From contig JALGVJ010000055.1 of NCBI GenBank assembly GCA_029838195.1, positions 1 to 20,105 on the forward strand: a stretch of 20,105 bases of DNA, in the 5' to 3' direction. This DNA is from Promethearchaeota archaeon. Its GTDB lineage: Archaea > Asgardarchaeota > Lokiarchaeia > Sigyniarchaeales > SOKP01. Both the position numbers and the translations under genes were made by a program. Below, piece by piece: positions 4,603 to 19,963 of the stretch (positions are counted from its first letter, which is position 1; the number at the start of each line of letters is the position of its first letter). Below the pieces are notes generated by a model. It did not search any database. It was not told the DNA's origin and was given only the letters and a program-made list of their open reading frames with translations.

Positions 4603-5457
4603 TTAAATGATGTATTTAGGGCATTGAAGGGTATCTTTATCGGTAATGATGATATAATCGGGATGGTTTCTAATGAAGGTAACGGGATAATCAGGGCCAG
4701 GCGCGCCAAATAAGGCGATTCTCAAAATAGTATTGGCCCAGTCATAAGGCGTTCCATTTCTGCAGTATAATCGAATCCTTTTAGAATTAAGAATTTCCCT
4801 CATGCCTAAAGTAAATGCAAATTTAGGAAAATTCTCTATATTTCCTCCTACATTCGCTCGAATGGCATTTATTGTAATGGTATACGCATTTAAAGCGACT
4901 TTTCTTGGGCCGGATTTTTCCACGCCTTTTTGTGGCTCATTAAACGCTACATGTCCATGAATTCCAATGCCTCCATGACACGTATCAATTCCTCCCAGGG
5001 AAGCAATCTGCTTGGCCACTTTCTTGATATTTTTTTCATTTGGAAAGATGATTTTTTCCTCATCTATTTCAATATCAGCATGTAGGTAATCAAAAAACAT
5101 TTCTTTAACAATTCGCTTGAAGCTTAGGGGATGAGTATCAGGTAAAGCACGTCCATCCTCGGAGCAATACTCATCCATGAAAAAAAACCAGCAGTTTTTC
5201 AAGGAAAGTCTCTTCTCATTAATGATGCGTGCTAAAATGGGATATTGTCCCGTAGGTCCCACGGGAAGAATTAATTTTGTGGCTTTTTTTTGGACCGAGT
5301 GGCTTTCAATTTCTTTGGCAATTTCTTCGGCGAAATGCTCGTGGAGTTCTTCTAAATCCTCACAAACGATTAGATGATTTCCCGCTTTTTCGATGGCTTC
5401 TTCCGGAGTTAATTTCAACAAGGTTCTTACTTCAATACTCCTATTATTTGTTCTCAT
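4603..5457 (-). CDS. Glucosamine-6-phosphate deaminase/isomerase (NagB/6PGL) family protein, PVGP subgroup
   Basis: FFMDEY (catalytic Asp motif), HPLSF, GGIGIHGHVAFNEP, AFTLGMREIL and DYPVT. The phosphate loop reads LPVGPTGQY instead of LATGST. Confidence 0.85.
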   Translation of the reverse strand: MRTNNRSIEVRTLLKLTPEEAIEKAGNHLIVCEDLEELHEHFAEEIAKEIESHSVQKKATKLILPVGPTGQYPILARIINEKRLSLKNCWFFFMDEYCSEDGRALPDTHPLSFKRIVKEMFFDYLHADIEIDEEKIIFPNEKNIKKVAKQIASLGGIDTCHGGIGIHGHVAFNEPQKGVEKSGPRKVALNAYTITINAIRANVGGNIENFPKFAFTLGMREILNSKRIRLYCRNGTPYDWANTILRIALFGAPGPDYPVTFIRNHPDYIIITDKDTLQCPKYII

Positions 5458-5485: not shown

Positions 5486-6877
5486 TTAGATTTTAGATTT
5501 CTTTTCCGCATGCAGGGTTTCTAACTTTTCTTTTATTTGTCTTAACCTCTCGCCATCTAAGGGATACTTGTAAATAGCGAAAATGGCAATTGCTAATGCG
5601 ATTGCGGGAAATATAAAGATTAATGTCCGTAAGCCAAATAGAATCTCTGGTGTAATTACATCAGGTTCAAACACAGCCCAGCCTACATTCGTAAACACGG
5701 TGGAAATAGCCAGAAAAATTAATATGGTCGTGAAGCGTAAAAATAGAGCATTAACTCCATAGTATCCGGCCTCTCTACGCATGCCTGTAACCGTCTCATC
5801 TTCATCAACGATATCAGAAACGACCAGATCAATGATATAAAGGGAGCCTGAAAGCCCAATACCGATTAGAAAAAAAGTAATTACTCCTCCAATGAAATCT
5901 TTAATGAACATTAATGGCGTGAGCGTTGCAATCCAAGAAGCCATGGAAATCATCCACGTTTTTCGATTCCCAATTTTCTGAACTAAAGGTTTCCAGAGTA
6001 TGGTCATGAAGATCACGGCTGAGATAAAAGTCAAGCCCAATAATAACGAAATTAGAAACGAATCTTGAACACCTAGCACGAATTTAGCATAAAGGGGGAC
6101 AATCGTGGGCAACATTCCGTAAACAAACCAATTACAAATTTCTGAAACGGAATACCACAAAAAAGACTTGTTCTTCACGCAGTATTTAATATTATTAAAA
6201 AATCCAGGTGCATTTTCGTGGTCCGCTTGAAATTCTTTCCGCTCTTTCGGGCCATATTTAAGAAAAATGTAGCCACATGCAATGACAATAAACATGCACG
6301 CAATTCCAAAAATTCGGTATTCAGGCAAGCTAGAAGGATCAGAGTAATCGGAGATGAAAAAGCTGGGTAAGATAAATGCCATGATAAGACCGATAATGGT
6401 GAACACCTGCCTCACATTATTCGCCTTGGCCCGTAGCTCACTCGTGATAAACACTTCTGGGAATAAGGATGTTAAGTTAAGCGAATACATTGTATAAAAA
6501 AGCTCAAATAAAATGATGATGATGAGGAAATAGATAAAATTTGCCATTTCCACGGAATTTTCAAGGGTTTTCAGAGGGGTAAAAAGCCAGAACATGATCA
6601 CGCCTAAAGGGATAAAAGCTACCATGATATAAGGAATTCTTCGCCCGAACCTTGTATGCGTCCGATCTGAAAGAGCACCTAAAAGTGGGTCGTTAAAAGC
6701 ATTCCACACGGACCAGATTATGAATCCAATCGAAATTAAAATGACGTTTATCCCCACGACAGCATAATAAAAAGTGAAAATCAAAAACGTGAATGTTTGA
6801 TAAGCCGTAACATCTCCTATCTGGCCAAAACTGTATATGGCTGCTATTTTAATAACGTTATTCTTCTTTTCACTCAT
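5486..6877 (-). CDS. MFS transporter, glycoside-pentoside-hexuronide (MelB-like) family
   Basis: About 12 TM helices, WNAFNDPLLGALSDRTHTRFGRRIPY, DIVDEDE..TG.RREAGYYG and a C-terminal YPL. It ends 28 bp before the NagB-like gene, suggesting an operon. Confidence 0.92.
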   Translation of the reverse strand: MSEKKNNVIKIAAIYSFGQIGDVTAYQTFTFLIFTFYYAVVGINVILISIGFIIWSVWNAFNDPLLGALSDRTHTRFGRRIPYIMVAFIPLGVIMFWLFTPLKTLENSVEMANFIYFLIIIILFELFYTMYSLNLTSLFPEVFITSELRAKANNVRQVFTIIGLIMAFILPSFFISDYSDPSSLPEYRIFGIACMFIVIACGYIFLKYGPKERKEFQADHENAPGFFNNIKYCVKNKSFLWYSVSEICNWFVYGMLPTIVPLYAKFVLGVQDSFLISLLLGLTFISAVIFMTILWKPLVQKIGNRKTWMISMASWIATLTPLMFIKDFIGGVITFFLIGIGLSGSLYIIDLVVSDIVDEDETVTGMRREAGYYGVNALFLRFTTILIFLAISTVFTNVGWAVFEPDVITPEILFGLRTLIFIFPAIALAIAIFAIYKYPLDGERLRQIKEKLETLHAEKKSKI

Positions 6878-8185: not shown

Positions 8186-9058
8186 TTAATGAGTTTTTCC
8201 AAGAAGATATTTAAAAAAGATTTTCCAATTTTTTGGTCTGATAAAAATAGCAGGAACTCGTTTTTGATAATCTTTATATGAATTCCCAAATCGATTGATT
8301 AATTCTTTTTCTTCTACGAAATGAATATGAATATTAAATAAAAAATAATAAAAAATAAAATTAATAATTGAATAGAGCGTCATTTGAAATAACATTCCTC
8401 CCATACATATCAGTACTAAGCTTGCATAAGCCGGATGACGTAACACGGAATAGATCTCATGATCTTGAAGTTTACTTTCCTCAGGAAAATATAGGTAAAC
8501 CAATGCCATGTAATCGATGCCAAAAGTACTGACGGCTCTTAATGTCATAAGAATTCCAATAACTAAAAAAAAAATTCCTAAAATTAGTTGGAATATTGAA
8601 AATAATGAATACATAGAAGTAAAATAGAGGGGTAGGGGGGTACTAAAAAGTGACAAGGGATAATAGGACAAATAAATAGAGTTTAAGCGATAAAAGGGAA
8701 TCCAATTATGAATGGAGATGCTAATAATAACACTAAGGCCAGTAAGGCCTATTAAGATGATTTTTTGATATGCTAATTGACCATATTTAGCTTTCAATCG
8801 ATCTTTGCGGGACCACATTTGATAAACTAAAAATAATCCACAGCATCCCATTAAAACAATTCCAAGAATTGGAAATAAAATAATAATCTCATTCTTAATT
8901 CCATTTTCAAAAAATATTATTGGTAGTAGGTCAAAACTAAATTGTATCAAAAAACTAATGGTGAAAATCGAAATAAAATAAATAGGAACTAAAAGTATCT
9001 TTTTTCCCGTAAAAAATGATACTTTTTCTTGAAATTCATGTAATCCTTTAATTTTCAT
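8186..9058 (-). CDS. Isoprenylcysteine carboxylmethyltransferase / phospholipid methyltransferase (ICMT/PEMT) family membrane protein
   Basis: Multi-TM protein with the family motifs IYSVLRHPAY and EEKELINRFGNSYKDYQKRVP. Confidence 0.85.
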   Translation of the reverse strand: MKIKGLHEFQEKVSFFTGKKILLVPIYFISIFTISFLIQFSFDLLPIIFFENGIKNEIIILFPILGIVLMGCCGLFLVYQMWSRKDRLKAKYGQLAYQKIILIGLTGLSVIISISIHNWIPFYRLNSIYLSYYPLSLFSTPLPLYFTSMYSLFSIFQLILGIFFLVIGILMTLRAVSTFGIDYMALVYLYFPEESKLQDHEIYSVLRHPAYASLVLICMGGMLFQMTLYSIINFIFYYFLFNIHIHFVEEKELINRFGNSYKDYQKRVPAIFIRPKNWKIFFKYLLGKTH

Positions 9059-9445: not shown

Positions 9446-10114
9446 ATGAAATATTTTTTAGATAGTGCTAAAATTGATGAAATTAAATATGCATTGGAAA
9501 ATTGGAATATTGAAGGTGTTACTTCCAATCCAAAACACGTGAAGGCTTCGGGAAAATCTTTTTCAACCATATTAAAAGAATTTGCTGAAGAATTCAAGGA
9601 GCTTAATTTTCCGATTTCCGTAGAGATAAACCCTCATTTACAAACCGCTGATGATATGATTGAGGAAGCAATGAAAATATCATCGCTTTCCGATAATTTT
9701 GTTATTAAAATACCATGTACCGAACAAGGTTTAATTGCTACCAAGAAATTAACCGAGGAGGGGATACGAATAAATGTAACGCTAGTTTTTACGGCATCGC
9801 AAGCTCTTCAAGTAGGCAGAATCGGTGCTTCTTATTGCTCCCCTTTTATAGGATGGCAAGAAGCTTCTGGCGTCGATTGTTTTGAATTATTATCAAATAT
9901 TATTGCTATCTATGAAAATTATGATTTTGATACGGAAATCATAGTGGCAGCTGTTCGCAATGGGAAGCAAATCGTTGAAGCTGCAATTCTTGGTGCAGAT
10001 ATTGTCACTGCGGGCTTTCAAGTATATAAAGATAGCTTTTACCATCCTTTTACAGATAGAGGATTAAAGATTTTTCAGGATGCCTGGGATGATACGGAAT
10101 TAGGTTCATTATAA
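9446..10114 (+). CDS. sqvA: Transaldolase (small TalC/FSA-type), probable 6-deoxy-6-sulfofructose:GAP transaldolase (SqvA/SftT-like)
   Basis: D6, N28, Schiff-base K88 (VIKIP), and the transaldolase-type E60 and F134. SPFIGW has W137 where canonical enzymes have a phosphate-binding Arg. NPKH and AAVR (Ser to Ala, R171) also fit. The sequence closely resembles Bacillus SqvA as I recall it (MKYFLDSA..EI.YA.ENW...FPISVEINPHL...). Confidence 0.85.
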   Translation: MKYFLDSAKIDEIKYALENWNIEGVTSNPKHVKASGKSFSTILKEFAEEFKELNFPISVEINPHLQTADDMIEEAMKISSLSDNFVIKIPCTEQGLIATKKLTEEGIRINVTLVFTASQALQVGRIGASYCSPFIGWQEASGVDCFELLSNIIAIYENYDFDTEIIVAAVRNGKQIVEAAILGADIVTAGFQVYKDSFYHPFTDRGLKIFQDAWDDTELGSL

Positions 10115-10200
10115 AAAAAAATCTTATATTTTCTCTTTTAATATTCAGAATCAAGATAATGAAATTAATTATCTAATAAAATTAACATGAAAATTTTTTT

Positions 10201-12339
10201 TCAAGCTTTTACCTCGAATTCGCCGGTCAAGATTTTATTTTTGTACTCCGGAATGGGCTCAAAACCTCCTATTGAGATTTTAAAAACTCCTTCTTCAATC
10301 ACTCTTTTTCCTTCATTATTTATAATCGAATATTCTCTTGGGGTTAAAAGAAAAGAAATGTTTTTTCTTTCTCCTGGTTTTAACTGAATTTTTTTAAATC
10401 CTTTTAATTCTCTTAAGGGAGGATTTAAAGAAGATTCTATTTTGCTGAGATATAATGAAACAACTTCTTGACCTAATCGATTGCCTGTATTTGATATTTC
10501 CACATTAACCTTAATATTTTCACCCTTTTTGATTTTTTTAGGTGCTATTTCCAAGTTATCAAGTTTAAAGGTCGTATAACTTAGGCCGAATCCAAATGGA
10601 AAAAGAGGTTCTCCTTTAAAAAACCTATACGTCCGATTTTCCATGTCATAATTTTCAAAATCGGGAAGATCGCTAGTGGATTTATAAAATGTTATGGGTA
10701 ACTTTCCGGAAGGATTATAATTTCCAAAAATCACATCTGCAATCGCATTACCGCCTTGTTCTCCTGGATACCACGCTTCTATTATTGCTGTAATATTTTT
10801 TTTAGCAAAATTAATCGAAAGTGCGCCCCCATTCATTAGTACTAAAATAATGGGTTTTTTCAGGGAAGCTAGCTCTTTTAAAAGCTTTTCTTGAACTTTG
10901 GGCAAATCCAATGTATTCCTATCCCCTTTTAAGGGACCTAATACAAATCCTTCTTCTCCTTCGAATTGTCCGGTCAATCCTAAGATCATGATAATGACCT
11001 CTGCTTTATCCGCCATATCTAACGCTTCTTGCGATAAAAATTCATCTCTATTAAAATGTTCGCATCCTTTGGAATAAAAGATTTTTGTAGTAGAAGAAAG
11101 CATATTTTTTATTCCTTGAAGGGGTGTGTTATATTGTTTGGGTGTACCATTATAATCACCTAAAAGGGCTTCTAAATGATCGGCATTAGGGCCGATGATG
11201 GCTATCGATTTTATATTTTTCGATAACGGAAGGATTCTATTTTCATTTTTTAAGAGAACAATGGATTCTCGTGCCATTTGCAGGGATAAATTTCGATGTT
11301 CATCACAATTAACCACATCCATGGGGATGTTAGAATAAGGAACATTATCTGTAGGGTCAAACATCCCAAGTCTGAAGCGTGCGAGGAAAGAGAATTTCAA
11401 GGCTTCATCTATAGTTGATTCATTTAAAAGGCCTTCTTTTACAGCTTTTTTAACATGCACGTGATATCGCTTGATTTTTAGGGTAGTCATGATATTCAAG
11501 GGATTGATAACGTTGCATCCCCCTTTTAAGGCCCTTGCGGCGGCTTCTTTGAATGTTGCTACAACTTCATGTCCGGAATACATGTCTGTAACTGCTCCTC
11601 CATCCCCAATCACATAGCCATCAAATTTCCATTGTTCTCTTAAAATTTCTTTTAAAAGTTGAGAGTTTGAACAACATGGCTCTCCATTTAATCGATTATA
11701 AGCCCCCATTATTCCTTTAGCCTTTCCAATAGTGATGCATGCTTCAAATGCCGGTAAATAGGTTTCCCATAAATCTTTCTCTTTGACTTCAATATTGATT
11801 TCATGGCGTTTATTTTCTGGACCGCTATGGACGGCAAAATGTTTAGGTTCTGCTATTGTTTTTAAATATTTTGGATGGTTTCCTTGTAATCCTTTCACGA
11901 ATGCAATACCCATTTGCGAAGTTAAATACGGATCTTCACCAAACGTTTCTTGTCCTCGCCCCCATCGAGGATCTCGGTAAATATTAATGTTAGGAGCTGC
12001 AAACGTGAGTCCATGATACCGCACGCGCTTGTTTTGTTTAATTGCTTCATGATGTTTTGCTCTCGCCTCGGTGGAAATTGCATCTGCCACTTGATATACT
12101 AATTCGGGATTCCATGACGCACTCATTCCAATAACTTGAGGAAATACAGTGGCGTATCCCGCAAAAGCTACTCCATGAATGCATTCATTTCTCCAATCAT
12201 AGCGCGGGACGTGTAATCTTTTTATTTCTAAGGAAATATTAAATAATTGAGATATTTTTTCATCAAATGTCATGTGTCCAATTAAATCTTTTACCCTTTC
12301 CTCGAATGAAAGAGTCGTGTTCATGAAATTATAACTCAT
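10201..12339 (-). CDS. Glycoside hydrolase family 3 (beta-xylosidase/beta-glucosidase-like, cytoplasmic, FN3-like C-terminus) with an atypical -1 subsite
   Basis: PNINIYRDPRWGRGQETFGEDP, KHFAVHSGPE, nucleophile D246 (GYVIGDGG), EGEE acid/base region, AWYPGEQGG, SGKLPITF and FPFGFGLSYT. No signal peptide is visible. Confidence 0.93.
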   Translation of the reverse strand: MSYNFMNTTLSFEERVKDLIGHMTFDEKISQLFNISLEIKRLHVPRYDWRNECIHGVAFAGYATVFPQVIGMSASWNPELVYQVADAISTEARAKHHEAIKQNKRVRYHGLTFAAPNINIYRDPRWGRGQETFGEDPYLTSQMGIAFVKGLQGNHPKYLKTIAEPKHFAVHSGPENKRHEINIEVKEKDLWETYLPAFEACITIGKAKGIMGAYNRLNGEPCCSNSQLLKEILREQWKFDGYVIGDGGAVTDMYSGHEVVATFKEAAARALKGGCNVINPLNIMTTLKIKRYHVHVKKAVKEGLLNESTIDEALKFSFLARFRLGMFDPTDNVPYSNIPMDVVNCDEHRNLSLQMARESIVLLKNENRILPLSKNIKSIAIIGPNADHLEALLGDYNGTPKQYNTPLQGIKNMLSSTTKIFYSKGCEHFNRDEFLSQEALDMADKAEVIIMILGLTGQFEGEEGFVLGPLKGDRNTLDLPKVQEKLLKELASLKKPIILVLMNGGALSINFAKKNITAIIEAWYPGEQGGNAIADVIFGNYNPSGKLPITFYKSTSDLPDFENYDMENRTYRFFKGEPLFPFGFGLSYTTFKLDNLEIAPKKIKKGENIKVNVEISNTGNRLGQEVVSLYLSKIESSLNPPLRELKGFKKIQLKPGERKNISFLLTPREYSIINNEGKRVIEEGVFKISIGGFEPIPEYKNKILTGEFEVKA

Positions 12340-12598
12340 GGTTTTTCTATCATTCTATAATTATTAGTTAAAGAAATCATGAAAAATATTAAAATCCATA
12401 CTTTTAATTCGCAGACATAAATTAAACCTATTTAATGAAAGAGCTATCTTTTATTATTAAATAGAAATATCAGAATAATAGAGAAGAAATGCGAGTTTTA
12501 TTAATTAAATTAGCTCATTTTATTTTGTATTTTCAGAAAAACTTTAACATAAAACCAAAATTTAATGAATATTATAAAAACGATAAATACTGAATAAA

Positions 12599-13918
12599 AT
12601 GAAACAAAAAATTCGCATTGGAGTCGTTTGTTTAGCAAGAAAAACTTTTGATTTTCAAGCAGCTCAAGATTTATTTAAACAAATTCAAGAGAAAATAATG
12701 TTAATTGAAGATGTGATTTGGGAAATAATTCCAGATTTAATCTTCGAAGTCGAGGAGGCGCAAGATGCGGGGCAGATATTGGCAACAAAATCAATTGATG
12801 GGTTAATTTGTATTAATGGAACGTTTGCTTTAGGGCATTTAATTTTAGAAATTAATAAATGGATTAGAGTTCCTATTTTATTATGGGGTTTGGAAGAATT
12901 ACCACATAAAGGGGGCAAGATTCGTTTAAATTCTACATGCGGATTGAACCTCAATGCTTCAAATTTATATAAAGCGGGAATACGTAATTATCATTATTGT
13001 ATTGGAGGAGAAATAGATAAAGATTGGTTAGATGCGATTCGAATTTTAAAGACTTTTTCCACGGCACGTGTAGGAATAATTGGTTCACGTGCACGTGGAT
13101 TTTTCAATGTAGATGTGGATGAGTTAGATCTGTATAAACAATTAGGCGTGTTAATCGATTACTATCAATTAGAAGAGCTTCTAAACATGGGTATTGAAAA
13201 TGTAGAAATAGAAAAACGCATTGAAGAATTAAAAGCCAATTTTGACATATCTGAATTAAATGATCAGCAACTACGAAAAGTTGCGGAATTAATTGTTAGA
13301 CTTGATGAATTCATGAAAGTAAAATCATTAACTTCCATGGCGATTCGATGTTGGCCGGAATTTGCGGAGTATTATGGAATTTCTCCTTGCGCAGCAATGT
13401 CTGTATTACAAGCTGAGGGAAAAATTTTAACTTGTGAGGGAGATATTTTAGGAAGTTTATCAATGTTAGCACACGTGGCCATTGGCGGCCAATATCCTTT
13501 TTTAGCTGATTTTTCTCAAGTCGATTTCAAGGAAAATTTTGCTTTATTATGGCATTGTGGAGTTGCTCCATGTAATCTATGGGATCAAAAATGTACTCGA
13601 TCATTGGATACCTATTTTGCAGGAGGTAAAGGCGTTACTGCGGGTTTTGTCTTGAAAAGTGGGGATCTTTCAATATTACGCTTGGATTATTCCCCTCCGA
13701 ATGAATACAGGATCTTTCTACAACAAGGTAAAGCTATCCCCATAGCAAAAGAGCTTAAAGGCACATTTGCTAAGGTTGTTTTTAAAGAGGATGTGAGGAA
13801 TGTCTTGAATAAAATCATTAAGAATGGAATTGCACACCATGTATCTGTCGTGTATGGCGACTTTATCAAGCCCCTTGAAATTTTTGCAAAATTAAAAGGA
13901 TGGAAGGTTATTAAATAA
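12599..13918 (+). CDS. sqvD: L-fucose/L-arabinose isomerase-family aldose-ketose isomerase, probable sulfoquinovose isomerase (SqvD/SftI-like)
   Basis: Metal-site motifs AIRCWPEF, TCEGD, LAD, WHCG and GIAHH. The N-terminal RKTFD and IRLNS motifs match my recollection of SqvD/SftI. It is translationally coupled to a YihQ-like gene. Confidence 0.75.
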   Translation: MKQKIRIGVVCLARKTFDFQAAQDLFKQIQEKIMLIEDVIWEIIPDLIFEVEEAQDAGQILATKSIDGLICINGTFALGHLILEINKWIRVPILLWGLEELPHKGGKIRLNSTCGLNLNASNLYKAGIRNYHYCIGGEIDKDWLDAIRILKTFSTARVGIIGSRARGFFNVDVDELDLYKQLGVLIDYYQLEELLNMGIENVEIEKRIEELKANFDISELNDQQLRKVAELIVRLDEFMKVKSLTSMAIRCWPEFAEYYGISPCAAMSVLQAEGKILTCEGDILGSLSMLAHVAIGGQYPFLADFSQVDFKENFALLWHCGVAPCNLWDQKCTRSLDTYFAGGKGVTAGFVLKSGDLSILRLDYSPPNEYRIFLQQGKAIPIAKELKGTFAKVVFKEDVRNVLNKIIKNGIAHHVSVVYGDFIKPLEIFAKLKGWKVIK

Positions 13919-15882
13919 TGGATTTCAAACAAAAAGAGGATGGTTTTGAACTTTATTTTAACAATCAATTAATAATAAAGCACGACGAAACAAATCCTTG
14001 TTTTAAATTAGGAAAAGGAACTGCACGTTTTAAATTAAAAGGGCATAAATTTAAAATTCAAGAAAAATTATTAGAAGAATTTTCTCTCAAACACCATGAA
14101 CTCATCTCTTTCAGCAATAAAGGCGATTCTCTAAGTAGATTAGAACTATCTTTTTCCAATGCAAATACAAAATTAACGGTAGAAATTGAAGAAAAAGGCA
14201 ACTTCTTAGAGATAATTCCTCATTATAGTGACTCATCCATTAATCGTTTTTGGTTTTTTCTCAACGCATGTCCCGAAGAAGCCATTTTTGGATGCGGCGC
14301 ACGCTTTGAGAAAATAAACTTGCGAGGAAGCATCATTCATTCTTGGGTAGAAGATTGTTCGCCCGTTTTTAGAGATTATTATACCTATTTTCCCTTACCT
14401 ACTTTTATTTCAAGCAGCAACTATTTTTGTCATGTTGACACTTGTAAATATTCAGAATTTAATTTTGAAGCTCCTGATTATCATGTAATACATGTTTGGG
14501 GAATTCCTAAAAAAATTATCATCTGTAAGCAAGACAACCTCATTTCTTTAATTAAAGAATTATCTAATTATTTTGGAAGACAACCTCCTTTACCTGATTG
14601 GGTACATGATGGTATTATTCTTGGAATTCAAGGCGGAACTCAAGTTGTTGAAGAAAAAATAAAAATTGCGGAAAAAGCAGGTATTAAAATCTGTGCAGTC
14701 TGGTGTCAAGATTGGCAAGGAATTCGAATGACTTCTTTTGGCCAGCAATTATTTTGGAATTGGAAACATGATGATACACGGTATCCAAATTTGCCCATCT
14801 TTATTAAAGAGCTAAATGCGCGGGGAATAAAATTCTTAGGATATATTAATACTCAATTGAGTACTGAGGGAGATCTATATAAAGAAGGAGCCGACAAGAA
14901 TTATTTCTTAAAAAATGATAATGGTGAGGATTATATTATCTATACTACGGATTTTCCTGTAGCAGTACTGGATTTGAGTAATCCTAATACATTAACGTGG
15001 ATTAAAGAAATCATTAAAAAACACATGTTAGGAATTGGATTAGCCGGTTGGATGGCAGACTATGGTGAATATGTTCCGGTTGATGCAGTAAATCATGCGA
15101 GGAAAGAGGGGGAGTGTTTCCACAATGAATATCCGGTTATTTTTGCTAAAATCATGCATGATCTCTTAAAAGAGGAAGGAAAACTGGATGAAATTTTCTA
15201 CTTTCATAGATCAGGATACATCCATTCTTCAAAATACATGATGTGCTATTGGCCGGGAGATCAATTGGTCGATTGGGATGATAAGTTAGGAATTGGTTCA
15301 GTAATTTCTTGCGGAATTTCGTTAGGACTATGTGGAATTGGAAATTATCATTTTGATTTAGGAGGTTTTACGACGTATGGCCCTTATAAACGATCTAAAG
15401 AATTATTCATGCGATGGGCAGAATTATCCGCTTTTTCCTTAATCATGAGAACTCATGAAGGCAACCGTCCTAAAGACAATTGGCAATTTGATGGCGATTC
15501 TGAAACTTTAGAACACCTCTCAAAAATGGTAAAGATACATGTTCATCTCAAACCCTATCTACTTGAATGTGAAAAAGAATATCAATTAACGGGTATTCCT
15601 CCCATGAGACCCCTATTCTTACATTACCCCAAGGATTCCATCTTACATGATCTTAATTTTCAATATTTATTAGGAAGAGATTTATTAATCGCTCCCGTGA
15701 TCCAACCGAAAAAAAATCAGTGGAACTGTTATTTACCAGATGATTCTTGGATACACGCATGGTCAGGAAAGCGATTTAAAAAAGGATGGTACGTGGTAGA
15801 AGCGCCCCTTGGTAGACCTCCCGTTTTTTATCGTGAAACATCCCACCATGTGGGATTGTTTAATGAATTAAAGAATTTCTGA
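13918..15882 (+). CDS. yihQ: Glycoside hydrolase family 31, YihQ/sulfoquinovosidase-like alpha-glycosidase with a variant sulfonate pocket
   Basis: GRQPPLPDW, LGIQGG, WCQDWQGIRMTSFG..L.WNW, nucleophile GWMADYGEY (D381), acid/base WPGDQ.VDW (D448) and MRTHEGNRP.DNWQFDGD. The start overlaps the upstream stop (TAATG, 13916-13920). Confidence 0.9.
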   Translation: MDFKQKEDGFELYFNNQLIIKHDETNPCFKLGKGTARFKLKGHKFKIQEKLLEEFSLKHHELISFSNKGDSLSRLELSFSNANTKLTVEIEEKGNFLEIIPHYSDSSINRFWFFLNACPEEAIFGCGARFEKINLRGSIIHSWVEDCSPVFRDYYTYFPLPTFISSSNYFCHVDTCKYSEFNFEAPDYHVIHVWGIPKKIIICKQDNLISLIKELSNYFGRQPPLPDWVHDGIILGIQGGTQVVEEKIKIAEKAGIKICAVWCQDWQGIRMTSFGQQLFWNWKHDDTRYPNLPIFIKELNARGIKFLGYINTQLSTEGDLYKEGADKNYFLKNDNGEDYIIYTTDFPVAVLDLSNPNTLTWIKEIIKKHMLGIGLAGWMADYGEYVPVDAVNHARKEGECFHNEYPVIFAKIMHDLLKEEGKLDEIFYFHRSGYIHSSKYMMCYWPGDQLVDWDDKLGIGSVISCGISLGLCGIGNYHFDLGGFTTYGPYKRSKELFMRWAELSAFSLIMRTHEGNRPKDNWQFDGDSETLEHLSKMVKIHVHLKPYLLECEKEYQLTGIPPMRPLFLHYPKDSILHDLNFQYLLGRDLLIAPVIQPKKNQWNCYLPDDSWIHAWSGKRFKKGWYVVEAPLGRPPVFYRETSHHVGLFNELKNF

Positions 15883-16070: not shown

Positions 16071-16811
16071 ATGGGAATCGAAGAATTATCTCAATTAGAT
16101 ATAATAAATGGAATCTTCACAACAATATTTGTTATTGTTTCCCTCATTGTCGGCCTAAAAATCTTGATTAAGTATTTCGCTTACAAGCAAAAGCAGTTAA
16201 TCACAGTGGGGCTTGCTTGGATGAGCATTGCGACACCATGGTTAGGAAATGTTAGTTCATTTTTACTCTATATCACATTTGGATTAAGACTAGAATTAAT
16301 TCCTTATCTTTTCATGGAAAATGTTTTCGTGCCTTTAGGAATAATTTTTTGGATTTATTCTTTTGCTACTTTAGTGTTTCAAGATTCGGCAACCATGAAA
16401 AAAATTACAGTGGTTTTTGTCTTAATTTGCATTCCCTATGATGTCTTTTTAATTATCATGCTATTCACGAATCCTGAAGTTATTGGAAGCTTAGAAGGAA
16501 TGTTTGATAGTCATCATGAGATCATTCCAAACGTGTTTCGCGTGTTTGGAATCTTCACGGTGTTAATAACGGGGATCTTGTTTTCAAGAGCTTCCATGAA
16601 GTCAAAAGATCCCACTGTTCAATGGAAAGGGAGATTTTTTTTAATCGGTATAATTTCTTTCACGATTGCTGCCTTTTTAGATGCCATATTAACTTTTGGA
16701 CCCCTTGGGATTATTTTCGTGAGGTTATTATTAACTTCCAGCGCAATAGAATATTACTTAGGCTTCTTTTTACCGGACCTCATTGCTAATAAACTGATTA
16801 AACAAAAATGA
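16071..16811 (+). CDS. Hypothetical integral membrane protein with about 7 TM helices
   Basis: Seven hydrophobic segments, no soluble domain, and an AAAAGGAG RBS upstream. Confidence 0.85.
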   Translation: MGIEELSQLDIINGIFTTIFVIVSLIVGLKILIKYFAYKQKQLITVGLAWMSIATPWLGNVSSFLLYITFGLRLELIPYLFMENVFVPLGIIFWIYSFATLVFQDSATMKKITVVFVLICIPYDVFLIIMLFTNPEVIGSLEGMFDSHHEIIPNVFRVFGIFTVLITGILFSRASMKSKDPTVQWKGRFFLIGIISFTIAAFLDAILTFGPLGIIFVRLLLTSSAIEYYLGFFLPDLIANKLIKQK

Positions 16812-17166: not shown

Positions 17167-18552
17167 ATGCTAAAAATTTCTTTTATTGGTGCTGCGTCTC
17201 TCGTGTTTGGGGAAAATATCATTTCAGATCTCTTGAGCTTTCCTGCTTTAAGAAAAGATACCCTTATTTGCTTGGAAGATATCGATGCTCATCGCTTGGA
17301 CCTCATCTATCAATATTTTCAAAAATATAAAGAATTAAATGAAAAAGAATTGGAAGGTGTTCAAATCGAAAAAACTACGGACCAAAAAAAAGCTATAGAA
17401 GATGCTAAATATATTATCAATGCAGTGCACGTGGGTGGTTTAGATGCATATAAATTGGATGTTGAAATACCGTTTAAATATGGCGTGTCTCAAACAGTCG
17501 GAGACACCTTGGGTCCTGGCGGAGTGTTCCGATTTCTTCGAACGGTTCCATTTTTTAATCAATTACTTGAAGACATGAAGACCATCGGATATAATGCGGA
17601 TAAAAAAGAAGGAAAAAAATCCCTATTATTAAATTATACGAATCCCATGGCCATGAATACGTGGTATTGCAATTTAATTTACCCTGGCTCTACGGTAGGT
17701 CTATGCCACGGCGTTCAAGGCACGGCGCATCTTCTCAGGCTATGGCTGGGGGCAAGACCAGAAGAAATAAGTTATTTCTGTGCTGGCATCAATCACATGG
17801 CTTGGTTTTTAGAATTCTGGTATAAAGACTCGAACGACCCCAATGCTCAATGGCAAAATGCTTATCCCTTACTTCGTGAAAAATTTAAACAATCAGAAAA
17901 ATTACAAAGGCTAAAAGGCATCCGCTGGGACATGATGGAAGCTACAGGATATTTTATGACCGAATCCGATGGACATCTTTCTGAATATCTCCCTTATTAT
18001 CGAAAGCGAAAAGATCTCTTGGAAAAATATAGAGTAGGGCCCGATTGGCTAAGCACCCTTGAACAAGCCTCTGACTATCACGAACAAGTAAAGTTTCAAG
18101 AGAGTCTGGAAAGCTTTTTTCGAAGAAAAATGAAACGAAGAAAACTTCCCTTTAGAAAAGCCGCTTCAGATGAGTATGCTTCTCATATCATTAACGCTCT
18201 TGAAACAGGAGTACCGTTTAGATTTAATGGAAACGTGATAAATAAAGAAGGAAGTTTAATCACCAATTTGCCTAATAATTGTTGCGTGGAAGTCCCCATT
18301 TTCGCAGACAAACAAGGGCTTCACCCTCAAGGAGGAATTATATTACCAACCATTTGCCAAGCTTTATGTATATCTAATATCATGGTACAAAAAGCCGCAG
18401 TTGAAGGTGCTCTCACGTTAGACAAGGAAAAGATATATCACGCCATTCTTCTTGATCCCAATACTGCCAGTGTTTGCTCCCCCGCAGAAATAAGAGAAAT
18501 GGTAAATGAAATGTTCGAGGCCGAGAAACAATGGGTCAATTATTTCGATTAA
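17167..18552 (+). CDS. melA: Glycoside hydrolase family 4 (NAD+/Mn2+-dependent), alpha-galactosidase/MelA-like
   Basis: Rossmann motif KISFIGAAS, KYGV.QTVGDTLGPGG.FR..RT, NYTNPM, GLCHG (Mn-Cys), GINHMAW, TES.GHLSEYLP and NLP...CVEVP. Confidence 0.88.
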   Translation: MLKISFIGAASLVFGENIISDLLSFPALRKDTLICLEDIDAHRLDLIYQYFQKYKELNEKELEGVQIEKTTDQKKAIEDAKYIINAVHVGGLDAYKLDVEIPFKYGVSQTVGDTLGPGGVFRFLRTVPFFNQLLEDMKTIGYNADKKEGKKSLLLNYTNPMAMNTWYCNLIYPGSTVGLCHGVQGTAHLLRLWLGARPEEISYFCAGINHMAWFLEFWYKDSNDPNAQWQNAYPLLREKFKQSEKLQRLKGIRWDMMEATGYFMTESDGHLSEYLPYYRKRKDLLEKYRVGPDWLSTLEQASDYHEQVKFQESLESFFRRKMKRRKLPFRKAASDEYASHIINALETGVPFRFNGNVINKEGSLITNLPNNCCVEVPIFADKQGLHPQGGIILPTICQALCISNIMVQKAAVEGALTLDKEKIYHAILLDPNTASVCSPAEIREMVNEMFEAEKQWVNYFD

Positions 18553-18619: not shown

Positions 18620-19963
18620 TTATTTTGATCTTTCTTTTTCCCAGTCAAAATCTAAAGTAATGAACTTTTTCGTGAATAAGAATGTCACGATGAGCACTCC
18701 CGAACACCATAAACCCCAAAGCACGTATCCCCAAGAAAAGTCCTTTCCCGGCACGTTCGGTAATCCTAAAATCGCACCCGTAATAAATAATGCAATCGCT
18801 TGAAAAATATTGAGTAAAATTTGGGGAAATCCTGCGTAAAGCCCAGATTTTCTGCCTTCTTCATCAAATTTAACTTCAGCATCTTCTGCGGTATCAGCGA
18901 GCCAAATATACGGAAATAAATAATATCCCCCAAGAAACGCTGCTACGCCTAAAATAAAAAGAATGGCAACGAATAAGCTAATTCCGCTTGGAATAAGTCC
19001 TATTAAGGTAAAGGGGAGTACTACGATTCCGGTGACGAGAATGATTAAAAAGGTTTGCTTTTTCCCTTTTTTATCAATCAACTTTTTCCACCCGAAAAGA
19101 AACACGACAATACCAACTAATAGCGTTACAGCTGCGATGTACATTTCATCTCCCTGAAATTTAAGGACTTCGGTGATAAAGCCGATTGATGTTGGCATTA
19201 TCATGCCAATAGCTAAAAATGCGATTGCTTGGAGCCAACATACGTTCATGAAATTCTTATCTTTTAAGACCTTTCTTAAATCTTCCTTGAAATTCATGCG
19301 AGCACCTTTAATTTGTTCCACGGGAAGGGCAAAAGCACAGAAATAAAAAAATACGACGACTAATGCACCAAAAGCAATAATTATGAAAGTAAAAATCGGA
19401 TCAATAACTCCAGTTGCTTGAAATGAGCTAATAAAAGGCGGAAACACGAGTAGCGTGAATACAACACCAAGACCTGAGCCTACAAAGCTGAAAAGATTTT
19501 GGAAGGCAGAAGCTTTTGGTCTTTGATTAACAAAAAATTGTTCTGAAACCCACGATTGATAAGGTGTCGTAAGCCCACCATAAGACCATTGAAATACAGC
19601 ATCCCAAATGATAATCCAAACGAATAACTGCGAGCTTGTGGGATTTTGAAGGAATAGCATGGGCAATAAAGCAAAAATGAAAGAAAGACCCGTGAGAGGC
19701 GCATAAAAAAACATGAAAGGTTTTCTGCGTCCGAATCTTGTATTAGTTTTATCAGAGAGCCATCCCATGAGAAATTGTCCCGCAGCGATGCTTAATTTGC
19801 CTATTGCCGTACCTATACCTGATAATATGGGGAGCAACCCATAAGCGGTAATGTAGAGGTATAATATTCCAAAATCTACAATGTCTAATACGATTCCAGC
19901 ACTAAATCTGGGCGAACCATAAATTAAATATTTTTTTATAGAAGTTTGATTAGTTGAATTCAT
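18620..19963 (-). CDS. MFS transporter, GPH/MelB-like family
   Basis: About 12 TM helices, GWLSDKTNTRFGRRKPF and ADTAEDAE.....GRKSGLYAG. Confidence 0.9.
   Translation of the reverse strand: MNSTNQTSIKKYLIYGSPRFSAGIVLDIVDFGILYLYITAYGLLPILSGIGTAIGKLSIAAGQFLMGWLSDKTNTRFGRRKPFMFFYAPLTGLSFIFALLPMLFLQNPTSSQLFVWIIIWDAVFQWSYGGLTTPYQSWVSEQFFVNQRPKASAFQNLFSFVGSGLGVVFTLLVFPPFISSFQATGVIDPIFTFIIIAFGALVVVFFYFCAFALPVEQIKGARMNFKEDLRKVLKDKNFMNVCWLQAIAFLAIGMIMPTSIGFITEVLKFQGDEMYIAAVTLLVGIVVFLFGWKKLIDKKGKKQTFLIILVTGIVVLPFTLIGLIPSGISLFVAILFILGVAAFLGGYYLFPYIWLADTAEDAEVKFDEEGRKSGLYAGFPQILLNIFQAIALFITGAILGLPNVPGKDFSWGYVLWGLWCSGVLIVTFLFTKKFITLDFDWEKERSK

What the first reader, a model, noticed from the sequence alone, without database searches (positions are those of the whole stretch)
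9446..15882. Core of the sulfoglycolytic sulfofructose-transaldolase (sulfo-SFT/sulfo-TAL) pathway in an apparently Asgard-archaeal genome
Seen: a transaldolase with sulfonate-type substitutions, an L-fucose/arabinose-isomerase-family gene and a YihQ-like GH31 lie within 6.5 kb. The last two are translationally coupled (TAATG), and GPH-type MFS transporters lie on both sides. Established: SQase, SQ isomerase (SftI/SqvD) and SF transaldolase (SftT/SqvA) define the sulfo-SFT pathway of Bacillus aryabhattai/megaterium and Eubacterium rectale (SQ to SF; SF + GAP to F6P + sulfolactaldehyde). Inference: flanking gene content points to a Lokiarchaeia-type archaeon, so this would be archaeal sulfoquinovose catabolism through sulfo-SFT. 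I know of no characterised archaeal example. Automated annotation would read it only as 'transaldolase / fucose isomerase / alpha-glucosidase'.
Basis: partly seen in the sequence, partly recalled or inferred. Interest (0 to 1): 0.92.

Follow-up and report, generated by a model that had tools for sequence, protein, structure and literature searches.

The report
Sulfosugar-type transaldolase cluster in Asgard archaeon
An Asgard (Promethearchaeota) archaeal contig carries bacterial-type genes for breaking down the plant and algal sulfosugar sulfoquinovose via a transaldolase. This would be the first such pathway in archaea, but its glycosidase has an altered sulfonate pocket and the last steps lie outside the window.

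Summary
The window is a whole 20.1-kb contig of a Promethearchaeota MAG.

- **Transaldolase (9446-10114):** it falls in the sulfofructose-transaldolase (SF-TAL) clade. It scores 305 bits to BmSF-TAL against 165 bits to the best canonical TAL, and all class residues are kept.
- **Isomerase (12599-13918):** it is homologous only to SftI, but belongs to a divergent sister clade ('type II').
- **GH31 (13918-15882):** it overlaps the isomerase stop codon (TAATG) and lies in the YihQ clade. However, its sulfonate triad R-W-Y reads Q-W-F.

TAL>ISO>GH31 synteny recurs in Asgard genomes. SF-TAL is present in 38 of 400 genomes sampled, often with an SLA-reductase-like gene, an AEC-family exporter or an AOR+ferredoxin pair. 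One carrier is a closed 6,035,313-bp genome that matches 'Ca. Lokiarchaeum ossiferum', where the cluster sits next to Vps4 and ESCRT-II.

Trees place the Asgard TAL and isomerase inside bacterial clades, which suggests horizontal acquisition.

- **Best reading (about 0.65):** a sulfo-SFT-like sulfoglycolysis pathway in Asgard archaea.
- **Main rival (about 0.2):** the same chemistry on another 6-modified sugar.

I found no paper reporting an archaeal pathway. Other first-reader notes of this scan, on this same window, had already flagged the Q-W-F motif and the missing SLA step.

The parts
9446..10114 (+). SF-transaldolase-type class I transaldolase (SftT/SqvA-like), 222 aa
   Evidence: PDB BmSF-TAL 8BC3: E=3.8e-90, 304.7 bits. 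The best canonical TAL (1VPX) scores 164.6 bits. Catalytic D6/E60/K88 and sugar-orienting N110/S132 are kept. W137 replaces the phosphate-binding Arg, and the sequence reads AAVR rather than ASIR and NPKH rather than NP[ST]L. It sits in the SF-TAL clade, split with 100% support from canonical Asgard TALs.
12599..13918 (+). Type II SftI-like aldose-ketose isomerase (L-fucose/arabinose isomerase superfamily), 439 aa
   Evidence: The only NCBIfam hit is NF048012 (SftI), at 221 bits against a cut-off of 700. It is 48-57% identical to isomerases in bacterial gh31-tal-reductase-iso clusters and 24-29% identical to Bacillus/Lachnospiraceae SftI. It lies within 10 kb of the SF-TAL in 27 of 35 Asgard loci.
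13918..15882 (+). YihQ-clade GH31 glycosidase with a remodelled sulfonate pocket (Q277/W280/F484 in place of R301/W304/Y508), 654 aa; start overlaps the isomerase stop (TAATG)
   Evidence: The catalytic Asp pair (D405/D472 equivalents) and Q262/Q288 are kept.
5486..6877 (-). GPH/MFS_2 glycoside:cation symporter (candidate importer)
   Evidence: Pfam MFS_2, E=2.1e-56; TIGR00792 gph. MFS_2 genes occur in 13 of 35 Asgard SF-TAL loci, as tandem arrays in L037 and L038.
18620..19963 (-). Second MFS_2-family transporter
   Evidence: Pfam MFS_2, E=7.3e-34.
10201..12339 (-). GH3 (Xyl3A/BglX-like) glycosidase between the transaldolase and the isomerase; conserved in the closest relatives
   Evidence: A 69%-identical orthologue sits in the same position in the same-genus relative L072, and a GH3 sits next to the TAL in L054.
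17167..18552 (+). GH4 NAD-dependent glycosidase, a recurrent neighbour of the cluster
   Evidence: Pfam Glyco_hydro_4 and Glyco_hydro_4C. GH4 lies beside the cluster in L072, L054, L050, L058 and L059.
4603..5457 (-). NagB-like (glucosamine-6-P deaminase superfamily) protein, a recurrent neighbour
   Evidence: TIGR00502 at 100.9 bits, below its cut-off. The same family lies near the SF-TAL in 9 of 35 Asgard loci, usually with an Amidohydro_2 gene.

Best explanation
The window holds the front half of a sulfo-SFT (sulfo-TAL)-like sulfoglycolysis route in a Promethearchaeota (Asgard) archaeon. The route appears to have been acquired from bacteria.

Proposed steps:
1. A GPH/MFS_2 symporter imports an alpha-sulfoquinovoside.
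2. The YihQ-clade GH31 releases the sulfosugar.
3. The type II SftI-like isomerase converts sulfoquinovose (SQ) to sulfofructose (SF).
4. The SF-type transaldolase transfers the C1-C3 unit of SF to glyceraldehyde-3-phosphate. This yields fructose-6-phosphate for glycolysis plus 3-sulfolactaldehyde (SLA).

SLA disposal is not encoded in the window. Relatives carry, inside the cluster, a YihU-like beta-hydroxyacid dehydrogenase plus an AEC-family exporter, or an aldehyde:ferredoxin oxidoreductase (AOR) plus ferredoxin. This genome has an orthologous ferredoxin-AOR-LarA-like trio and an AEC gene on contig C35.

Shown here: homology, class-specific residues, conserved synteny and archaeal location. 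Inferred: substrate identity, each catalytic step, and the route of SLA disposal.
For: Transaldolase:
- It matches solved BmSF-TAL far better than canonical TALs, and all catalytic and class-specific residues are present. The WAR motif is as quoted in PMC11659671.
- It is a second TAL. This genome also has a canonical one on C51, 40% identical.
- Across 400 Asgard genomes the hits are bimodal: 38 genomes have an SF-TAL type at 66% identity or more, and the rest match at 45% or less.

Synteny in Asgard genomes:
- The order is TAL > [beta-HAD reductase, 9 loci] [AEC exporter, 10 loci] [Fer4+AOR, 3 loci] > ISO > GH31.
- The reductase's top PDB hit is YihU SLA reductase 6SM7, E=2.6e-31.

Bacterial counterparts:
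- Bacterial SF-TAL loci show the same gene sets: gh31-tal-reductase-iso, AEC, and in one case AOR.
- Priestia, Paenibacillus and Lachnospiraceae relatives of experimentally proven sulfo-SFT organisms fall in the same TAL clade.

GH31:
- It scores above the YihQ model's cut-off, and both catalytic Asp residues are conserved.
- Q at the R301 position also occurs in 16 of 37 GH31s inside bacterial SF-TAL clusters.
- A GH31 SQase without the RWY motif (SqgH) has been characterised (PMC12780224).

Archaeal location:
- The nearest homologues are Asgard MAGs.
- In closed genome G138 the cluster abuts Vps4 and ESCRT-II.
- The window's 246-aa membrane protein has about 20 paralogues on other contigs of the MAG.
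- The cluster was assembled independently twice.
Against: - The GH31 lacks R301 and Y508 of the Q/E-RWY sulfonate motif. K300 is also Q, and I found no compensating basic residue by class-contrast analysis. F at position 508 was seen in 0 of 37 bacterial cluster GH31s.
- The isomerase clade has no characterised member.
- The window has no SLA reductase or dehydrogenase, TauE or DUF4867. The best YihU-like gene in the genome is only 35% identical to the cluster-linked reductase.
- Side genes could point to a broader or different glycan substrate. These are a GH3 Xyl3A-like gene, GH4, and a BD-FAE esterase just past the contig end, plus sulfatases near the cluster in 9 relatives.
- No expression or biochemical data exist.
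Confidence: 0.65

Rival explanations
1. The same three-step chemistry (glycosidase, aldose-ketose isomerase, transaldolase cleavage to F6P plus a C3 aldehyde) acts on a different 6-modified glucose. Candidates are a 6-O-sulfated glucoside, a neutral 6-deoxy glucoside (quinovoside) or a uronate-type glucoside. In that case the C3 product is not sulfolactaldehyde.
For: - The GH31 sulfonate triad is Q-W-F, with no Arg at position 300 or 301.
- Asgard YihQ-clade GH31s have radiated into RWY, RWF, QWY, QWF, NWF and LYF pocket states. None of the 17 copies next to the isomerase in relatives is RWY: 9 are QWY, 6 RWF, 1 QWF and 1 is truncated.
- Sulfatase genes lie within 10 kb of the TAL in 9 of 35 Asgard loci.
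- The cluster reductase scores equally well against tartronate-semialdehyde reductase: 1VPD at 4e-31, and NF008592 as the top NCBIfam hit.
- The type II isomerase is uncharacterised.
Against: - The transaldolase keeps every class residue of bacterial SF-TALs. It is 58-70% identical to those in clusters with canonical RWY sulfoquinovosidases, including Priestia/Bacillus relatives of proven SQ degraders.
- Q301-type GH31s also sit in otherwise standard bacterial sulfo-SFT clusters.
- W304, Q262 and Q288 are kept.
Confidence: 0.2
2. This is an ordinary carbohydrate locus. The transaldolase serves the pentose-phosphate pathway, the GH31 is a generic alpha-glucosidase and the isomerase acts on fucose or arabinose. 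The neighbourhood has no pathway meaning.
For: - Automated names in databases are 'transaldolase', 'alpha-glucosidase' and 'fucose isomerase'.
- Other glycoside hydrolases (GH3, GH4) are interleaved in the cluster.
Against: - The genome has a separate canonical TAL on C51, of the type with the phosphate-binding Arg.
- The window TAL has W at that site and lies in a clade separated with 100% support.
- The TAL-ISO pairing is conserved in 27 of 35 Asgard loci and in many bacterial phyla.
- The GH31 is far closer to YihQ (633 bits) than to any alpha-glucosidase or alpha-xylosidase (135 bits or less).
Confidence: 0.07
3. The contig is a bacterial contaminant mis-binned into an Asgard MAG (estimated contamination 7.9%). 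In that case the pathway call stands but it is not archaeal.
For: - The MAG has 7.87% estimated contamination and the window is a stand-alone 20-kb contig.
- The genes are of bacterial ancestry in the trees.
Against: - The best homologues of all three proteins, at up to 83% identity, come from dozens of independently binned Asgard MAGs.
- The cluster occurs on Asgard contigs of 122-672 kb, and in a closed 6.04-Mb genome beside Vps4 and ESCRT-II.
- The contig's 246-aa membrane protein has about 20 paralogues across the MAG.
Confidence: 0.03

Closest known systems
Sulfo-SFT / sulfo-TAL pathway of Priestia (Bacillus) aryabhattai SOS1, B. megaterium DSM 1804 and Eubacterium rectale (SftA/G/I/T/X/R or D/E; SqvA/SqvD)
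   Same: - An SF-transaldolase-clade TAL with the same catalytic and sulfonate-type residues.
- A YihQ-clade GH31.
- An isomerase homologous to SftI.
- An MFS sugar:cation symporter.
- The logic SQ-glycoside -> SQ -> SF -> F6P + SLA (PMC7491151, PMC11968277).
   Different: - The host is archaeal.
- The isomerase belongs to a deep sister clade: 181-221 bits on the SftI model, against 835 bits for Priestia.
- The GH31 pocket is Q-W-F, not R-W-Y.
- The window has no DUF4867 (SftX), TauE exporter, SLA dehydrogenase or reductase, or regulator.
- Relatives use an AEC-family exporter, and in some cases AOR plus ferredoxin.
Uncharacterised bacterial gh31-tal-reductase-(AEC)-type II isomerase clusters (Clostridia, Spirochaetota/Leptospirales and Planctomycetota MAGs; e.g. 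L086, L096, L122-L146, L127)
   Same: This is the nearest gene content: a type II isomerase (48-57% identical), a TAL (58-66%), a beta-HAD reductase (41-57% identical to the Asgard one) and an AEC exporter. Several have a Q301-type GH31.
   Different: All are bacterial, none has been studied experimentally, and all their GH31s keep Y508.
E. coli YihQ / A. tumefaciens SQase / E. rectale SftG (GH31 sulfoquinovosidases; PDB 5AED, 5OHS, 8R56)
   Same: Full-length homology (E=7e-189 to 5AED). The catalytic nucleophile and acid/base Asp residues are kept, as are Q262, Q288 and W304.
   Different: R301 is Q, Y508 is F and K300 is Q. The loop at window residues 343-350 also has a different signature in all Q301-class members.
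BmSF-TAL (SqvA) of B. megaterium, PDB 8BC2-8BC4
   Same: About 62-65% identical, aligned end to end. D6/E61/K89, N111/S133, W138 and the AA-x-R segment are conserved.
   Different: Position 30 is Lys rather than Arg. About half of the bacterial SF-TAL-clade sequences share this.
SqgH-type GH31 sulfoquinovosidase (AmSqgH; PMC12780224)
   Same: It is a precedent for a GH31 enzyme that hydrolyses SQ glycosides without the Q/E-RWY motif.
   Different: It is a different GH31 clade with a different residue set. The window protein is a YihQ-clade member, not an SqgH.

Membership tests
SF transaldolase (SftT/SqvA) | Class I TAL/FSA fold with the Schiff-base Lys and the Asp/Glu catalytic partners (D6, E61, K89 in BmSF-TAL) | tested here: met
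   Pfam TAL_FSA, E=1.4e-43. D6, E60 and K88 align with BmSF-TAL and are invariant in the clade.
SF transaldolase (SftT/SqvA) | Sulfonate-type specificity residues: Trp in place of the phosphate-binding Arg (W138), AA-x-R in place of AS-x-R, and NP[KR]H in place of NP[ST]L | tested here: met
   The window has SPFIGW(137), AAVR(171) and NPKH. Canonical Asgard TALs, including this genome's C51 copy, have GR / ASIR / NP[ST]L. Motif as described in PMC11659671.
SF transaldolase (SftT/SqvA) | Phylogenetic placement with characterised SF-TALs, apart from canonical transaldolases | tested here: met
   An 83-row SF-TAL clade that includes Priestia and Paenibacillus is separated from canonical TALs with 100% SH-aLRT support. 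This was a quick tree.
SF transaldolase (SftT/SqvA) | Catalyses SF + GAP -> F6P + SLA | not testable with these tools
   Needs an enzyme assay.
SQ isomerase SftI/SqvD (NCBIfam NF048012) | Scores above the equivalog cut-off (700 bits) and groups with characterised SftI | tested here: not met
   The window protein scores 221 bits. Priestia SftI scores 835 and the Lachnospiraceae type 417. It lies in a separate deep clade ('type II') in the tree.
SQ isomerase SftI/SqvD (NCBIfam NF048012) | Encoded next to an SF transaldolase as the only aldose-ketose isomerase of the cluster | tested here: met
   It lies within 10 kb of the SF-TAL in 27 of 35 Asgard loci. Bacterial SF-TAL clusters that carry an isomerase have a type I or a type II copy; only one (L113) has an isomerase of each type.
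GH31 sulfoquinovosidase (YihQ/SftG) | GH31 catalytic nucleophile and acid/base Asp (D405, D472 of YihQ) and YihQ-clade membership | tested here: met
   Both Asp residues align. NF007746 scores 748 bits against a cut-off of 553, and 5AED gives E=7e-189.
GH31 sulfoquinovosidase (YihQ/SftG) | Q/E-RWY sulfonate-recognition motif (Q288, R301, W304, Y508) | tested here: not met
   The window has Q264, Q277, W280 and F484 in the ungapped motifs FGQQLFWNW and DLGGFTT. All five solved SQases have R..W..Y. Motif definition from PMC12780224.
Complete sulfo-SFT pathway | An SLA reductase (SftR/YihU) or SLA dehydrogenase (SftD/SlaB) and a sulfonate exporter encoded with the core genes | tested here: not met
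   None is in the window. The best YihU-model hits in the genome score 141 and 125 bits against a cut-off of 348. Candidates elsewhere are the Fer4-AOR-LarA-like trio at C35:37951-41600 and an AEC gene at C35:65202-66137. Relatives do carry a reductase, AEC or AOR inside the cluster.
Complete sulfo-SFT pathway | SftX (DUF4867) present | tested here: inconclusive
   There was no PF16161 match in the genome, but the control genomes gave none either.

The most novel reading that the evidence does not exclude
The remodelled Q-W-F pocket, the uncharacterised type II isomerase and the recurrent sulfatase, AOR and LarA-like neighbours could mean something other than classical plant-type sulfoquinovoside breakdown. 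Asgard archaea may instead run a not-yet-described transaldolase-dependent shunt for a different 6-modified sugar, such as a 6-O-sulfated or otherwise substituted glucoside. In this reading the C3 aldehyde is oxidised by a dedicated ferredoxin-linked AOR. That step would feed reducing equivalents and an organosulfur acid to the sulfate- or sulfite-reducing syntrophic partners.
Probability: 0.2. Interest if true: 0.85.

Novelty: new variant of a known kind. Interest (0 to 1): 0.7.

Why it matters
Sulfoquinovose is made at roughly 10 Pg per year, and every characterised degradation route is bacterial. A 2026 review states that no pathway is characterised in archaea or eukaryotes (PMC12890257).

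A conserved sulfo-SFT-like cluster in about 10% of sampled Asgard genomes would add a new substrate class to the physiology of the closest prokaryotic relatives of eukaryotes.

It also suggests a concrete cross-feeding link, DHPS or sulfolactate passed to sulfite- or sulfate-reducing partners. This would resemble the E. rectale-Bilophila pair in the gut.

The hypothesis is directly testable. A genome whose single contig has exactly the published length of cultured 'Ca. Lokiarchaeum ossiferum' B-35 (6,035,313 bp) carries the TAL-reductase-AEC-isomerase cluster and a Q-W-F GH31.

Separately, the Asgard radiation of YihQ-clade GH31s with six pocket states, and the Q301 class found in bacterial clusters, show that the 'RWY' rule used to annotate sulfoquinovosidases is not general.

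Tried and rejected
- **rRNA:** no 16S rRNA gene was found in the MAG. Taxonomy therefore rests on homologue names, on named contigs that are identical to anonymous handles, and on kinship codes.
- **Compensating residue in the GH31:** I contrasted the R301 and Q301 classes over 166 GH31 sequences to look for a compensating basic residue. No position gains K or R. Only the loop at residues 343-350 and a few neighbouring positions differ.
- **Papers not held:** Snow et al. 2023 (Structure) and Abayakoon et al. 2018 are not in the library. Motif definitions were taken second-hand from PMC11659671 and PMC12780224. I could not verify the quantitative effects of R301 or Y508 mutants.
- **DUF4867:** the search found nothing, but the controls did not ring either, so it is uninformative.
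- **Naming the type II isomerase clade:** the representative search plus cluster look-up gave only 'fucose isomerase family' labels from Brachyspira and Brevinema, with no characterised member.
- **'Generic PPP transaldolase' and 'bacterial contaminant contig':** both were considered and largely rejected (see rivals).
- **YihU sulfonate residues in the Asgard reductase:** not checked, because the residue definitions were not at hand. The PDB ranking is a tie between YihU and tartronate-semialdehyde reductase.

Full report
**1. What is in the window**

The window is the whole of contig C80 (20,105 bp) of a 4.5-Mb MAG with 94 contigs, 96.6% completeness and 7.9% contamination.

ORF calling and Pfam/NCBIfam scans give this gene order:

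| Coordinates | Strand | Product |
|---|---|---|
| 1-1809 | + | beta-helix protein |
| 2715-4412 | - | acyl-CoA synthetase |
| 4603-5457 | - | NagB-like protein |
| 5486-6877 | - | MFS_2/GPH symporter |
| 7221-8153 | + | weak creatininase-like protein |
| 8186-9058 | - | PEMT/ICMT-like methyltransferase |
| 9446-10114 | + | transaldolase |
| 10201-12339 | - | GH3 |
| 12599-13918 | + | isomerase |
| 13918-15882 | + | GH31 |
| 16071-16811 | + | 246-aa membrane protein with no family |
| 17167-18552 | + | GH4 |
| 18620-19963 | - | second MFS_2 transporter |

The isomerase stop and the GH31 start overlap as TAATG. Two qualifications apply: a minus-strand GH3 gene sits between the transaldolase and the isomerase, and the transporters are about 2.6-2.7 kb away rather than adjacent.

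**2. The transaldolase**

Against the PDB, the best matches are the three Bacillus megaterium sulfofructose transaldolase entries (8BC2-4). They give E=3.8e-90 and 305 bits, aligned end to end. Canonical short transaldolases reach only 165 bits and FSA about 76 bits.

PMC11659671 lists the residues that Snow et al. 2023 assigned in BmSF-TAL:
- catalytic D6/E61/K89;
- sugar-orienting N111/S133;
- a sulfonate-orienting 'WAR' motif that includes W138.

The window protein has D6, E60, K88, N110, S132 and W137, plus the AAVR171 segment.

A class comparison shows a clean split:
- SF-TAL-clade proteins read T[TS]NP[KRN]H ... SPFxGW ... AAxR;
- canonical Asgard TALs, including this genome's own second copy on C51, read TTNP[ST]L ... 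SPFxGR ... ASIR.

It is shared by about half of the bacterial SF-TAL-clade sequences, so it is not a concern.

In a quick ML tree, the SF-TAL clade (83 rows, including Priestia, Metabacillus, Paenibacillus and Lachnospiraceae) is separated from canonical TALs with 100% support.

**3. The isomerase**

Pfam gives only a sub-threshold Fucose_iso_C hit. The single NCBIfam hit is the SftI model NF048012, at 221 bits against a 700-bit cut-off, over the full length.

The same model gives the following scores:
- a Priestia SftI: 835 bits;
- Lachnospiraceae/Oscillospiraceae-type copies: 401-417 bits;
- the window-type proteins of bacteria and archaea: 181-216 bits.

BLAST and a tree show two deep clades:
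- type I: Bacillus, Paenibacillus and Lachnospiraceae, 24-29% identical to the window protein;
- type II: Asgard plus Clostridia, Spirochaetota, Planctomycetota, Brachyspira and Brevinema, 43-70% identical.

Almost every SF-TAL cluster with an isomerase carries one type or the other. I saw both types together only in L113, a Lachnospiraceae MAG.

No type II member carries a functional name. The protein is thus a paralogue-level relative of SftI whose role is inferred from context. It is not a member of the curated SftI family.

**4. The GH31**

It is clearly in the YihQ clade. NF007746 scores 748 bits against a cut-off of 553, and E. coli YihQ (5AED) gives E=7e-189. The next GH31 families, such as YicI, reach E of about 1e-37.

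The catalytic Asp pair is kept, as are Q262, Q288 and W304. R301 is Gln and Y508 is Phe, both in ungapped and highly conserved motifs (FGQQLFWNW, DLGGFTT). K300 is also Gln. All five solved sulfoquinovosidases have R..W..Y. PMC12780224 describes Q/E-RWY as the important recognition motif.

Two observations reduce the weight of this failure:
- In 37 GH31s inside bacterial SF-TAL clusters, 21 are RWY but 16 are QWY. Q301 is therefore common in otherwise standard-looking sulfo-SFT clusters.
- A GH31 of another clade (SqgH) is an active SQase without the motif.

F508 was seen only in Asgard sequences.

Among the 120 closest database homologues, nearly all from Asgard MAGs, the pocket reads QWY, RWF, QWF, RWY, LYF, NWF or HWF.

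In a FastTree, the window protein sits in a small QWF clade that is sister to a QWY clade. That sister clade contains the cluster-linked GH31 of a Hermodarchaeota MAG. QWF arose at least five times.

A class contrast found no compensating Lys or Arg. It found only a different loop signature at residues 343-350.

**5. Conservation and context**

A search of 400 genomes of the same phylum gave a bimodal result. SF-TAL-type matches at 66% identity or more occur in 38 genomes. Matches at 45% identity or less (canonical TALs) occur elsewhere.

I fetched up to 20 kb around 35 of these loci and clustered the ORFs. Counts within 10 kb of the TAL, among the 35 loci with a called TAL (the window included), are below. 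They are lower bounds, because many contigs are short.

| Neighbour | Loci |
|---|---|
| Isomerase | 27 |
| YihQ-clade GH31 | 18 |
| MFS_2 transporters (tandem arrays of five or six in two loci) | 13 |
| AEC-family exporter (Mem_trans) | 10 |
| Beta-hydroxyacid dehydrogenase | 9 |
| NagB-like protein | 9 |
| Amidohydro_2 | 9 |
| GH2 | 9 |
| Sulfatase | 9 |
| Ferredoxin + AOR | 3 |
| Sulfite-oxidase-family molybdoenzyme | 2 |

The typical order is TAL > [reductase] [AEC] or [Fer4-AOR] > ISO > GH31.

The reductase's best PDB hit is E. coli YihU SLA reductase (6SM7, 2.6e-31). This is essentially tied with tartronate-semialdehyde reductase. It is 41-57% identical to the reductase that follows the TAL in bacterial clusters.

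None of the 17 GH31s in the relatives' clusters is RWY. Nine are QWY, six RWF, one QWF and one is truncated.

**6. The missing back end in this genome**

The window has no gene for SLA disposal. Elsewhere in the MAG I found:
- a ferredoxin-AOR-LarA-like trio at C35:37951-41600, which is 57%, 73% and 55% identical to the trio embedded in the cluster of relatives L052, L043 and L056;
- an AEC gene at C35:65202-66137;
- only distant YihU-like genes, 35% identical to the cluster-linked reductase and at most 141 bits on the YihU model.

A Leptospirales SF-TAL cluster also carries this Fer4-AOR pair. Ferredoxin-dependent oxidation of SLA to sulfolactate is therefore a reasonable but untested proposal.

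**7. Is it archaeal?**

Four lines of evidence say yes:
- The closest homologues of TAL (73-83%), isomerase (64-70%) and GH31 (45-65%) are named Promethearchaeota, Promethearchaeia, Hermod-, Hod-, Heimdall-, Thor- and Helarchaeota MAGs.
JAEOUA010000010.1 (504,141 bp) is G276:C10, in the same family. 'Promethearchaeum sp.' CSMAG_2442 is G141, in the same order.
- G138 is one contig of 6,035,313 bp. This is exactly the published size of the closed 'Ca. Lokiarchaeum ossiferum' B-35 genome (PMC9834061). There the order is ESCRT-II < Vps4 < TAL > reductase > FKBP > aminotransferase > AEC > ISO. Its single YihQ-clade GH31 lies 1.2 Mb away and is also Q-W-F.
- The window's 246-aa membrane protein has about 20 paralogues on other contigs of the MAG. 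The cluster was also assembled independently in two metagenomes.

Contamination is therefore very unlikely.

**8. Origin**

In the TAL tree, Asgard sequences form a 28-row clade with 97% support, nested among bacterial lineages. Two bacterial rows (SAR324 and Desulfobacterales) lie inside it, and one Asgard pair lies outside. In the isomerase tree, the Asgard clade nests within bacterial type II.

This fits one main bacterial-to-Asgard transfer followed by spread. The trees are quick or FastTree trees, and I ran no AU tests, so direction and number of events remain provisional.

**9. Literature**

Searches combining sulfoquinovose or sulfoquinovosidase with Asgard, Lokiarchaeota, archaea or MAGs found no report of archaeal SQ catabolism. 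The 2026 review PMC12890257 states that all known pathways are bacterial. The only archaeal mention is a passing CAZy note of GH188 in Hikarchaeia.

**10. Verdict**

The core call is well supported for the transaldolase, for the genomic logic and for the archaeal host. That call is a sulfo-SFT-like module in an Asgard archaeon.

It is weaker for the isomerase, which belongs to an uncharacterised sister clade. It is weakest for the GH31, where a defining motif was tested and not met.

I put 0.65 on sulfoquinovose-type sulfoglycolysis. I put 0.2 on the same chemistry acting on another 6-modified sugar, and the remainder on trivial explanations.

It is a new variant of a known pathway in a new domain of life, and it can be tested in an existing culture.

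Noticed in passing
window 16071-16811 (+): A 246-aa polytopic membrane protein with no Pfam or NCBIfam family. It has about 20 paralogues (27-48% identical) spread over at least 15 contigs of the same MAG, so it is a lineage-expanded membrane family of unknown function.
   Followed up: partly
G000 contig C35:37951-41600; L056:12000-15666; L043/L075; L095: A ferredoxin, an aldehyde:ferredoxin oxidoreductase and a LarA-like (Lar_N) protein form a trio. It is embedded between TAL and ISO in some Asgard clusters, the Fer4-AOR pair occurs in a Leptospirales SF-TAL cluster, and the trio is present elsewhere in this genome. It is a candidate for Fd-dependent sulfolactaldehyde oxidation plus 2-hydroxyacid (sulfolactate?) racemisation.
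   Followed up: partly
P0001-P0120; L037-L071: Asgard archaea hold a large radiation of YihQ-clade GH31 paralogues whose 'sulfonate triad' reads RWY, RWF, QWY, QWF, NWF, LYF or HWF. Some contigs carry two different classes.
   Followed up: partly
L096, L101, L113, L117, L122-L151 (bacterial loci): 16 of 37 GH31s inside bacterial SF-transaldolase clusters have Gln at the R301 position (QQ[KY]QW...Y). The RWY rule for annotating sulfoquinovosidases is therefore not general, even in bacteria.
   Followed up: partly
window 17167-18552 (+); L072, L054, L050, L058, L059: A GH4 (NAD/Mn-dependent) glycosidase recurs beside the cluster. In L072 and L054 it follows the isomerase where GH31 would be, so it may be an alternative glycosidase for the same substrate.
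   Followed up: no
L161:14804-17426 (just beyond the right end of the window); L072:5947-7657: Independent assemblies extend the cluster by an AP_endonuc_2 (xylose-isomerase-like TIM) gene, a 147-aa ORF and a BD-FAE-family alpha/beta-hydrolase. The 148-aa + BD-FAE pair also follows the isomerase in the same-genus relative. It could be a deacylating esterase.
   Followed up: no
L037:88-9613; L038: Six (L037) and five (L038) MFS_2 transporter genes lie beside the TAL-ISO-GH31 cluster, all six in tandem upstream of the TAL in L037.
   Followed up: no
L045:7095-8147; L048:8538-9590: A sulfite-oxidase-family molybdoenzyme (Oxidored_molyb + DUF4079; SorA/MsrP-like) is inserted between TAL and ISO in two Asgard genomes.
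   Followed up: no
L039, L051-L054, L056, L058, L059, L070: A sulfatase (PF00884 + SGSH_C) lies within 10 kb of the SF-type TAL in 9 of 35 Asgard loci. It often occurs with GH2, a GFO_IDH_MocA oxidoreductase, a NagB-like protein and Amidohydro_2 genes in a divergent unit.
   Followed up: no
L090, L097: The SAR324 and Desulfobacterales TALs nest inside the Asgard SF-TAL clade, which hints at transfer back from archaea to bacteria. This rests on a quick tree only.
   Followed up: no
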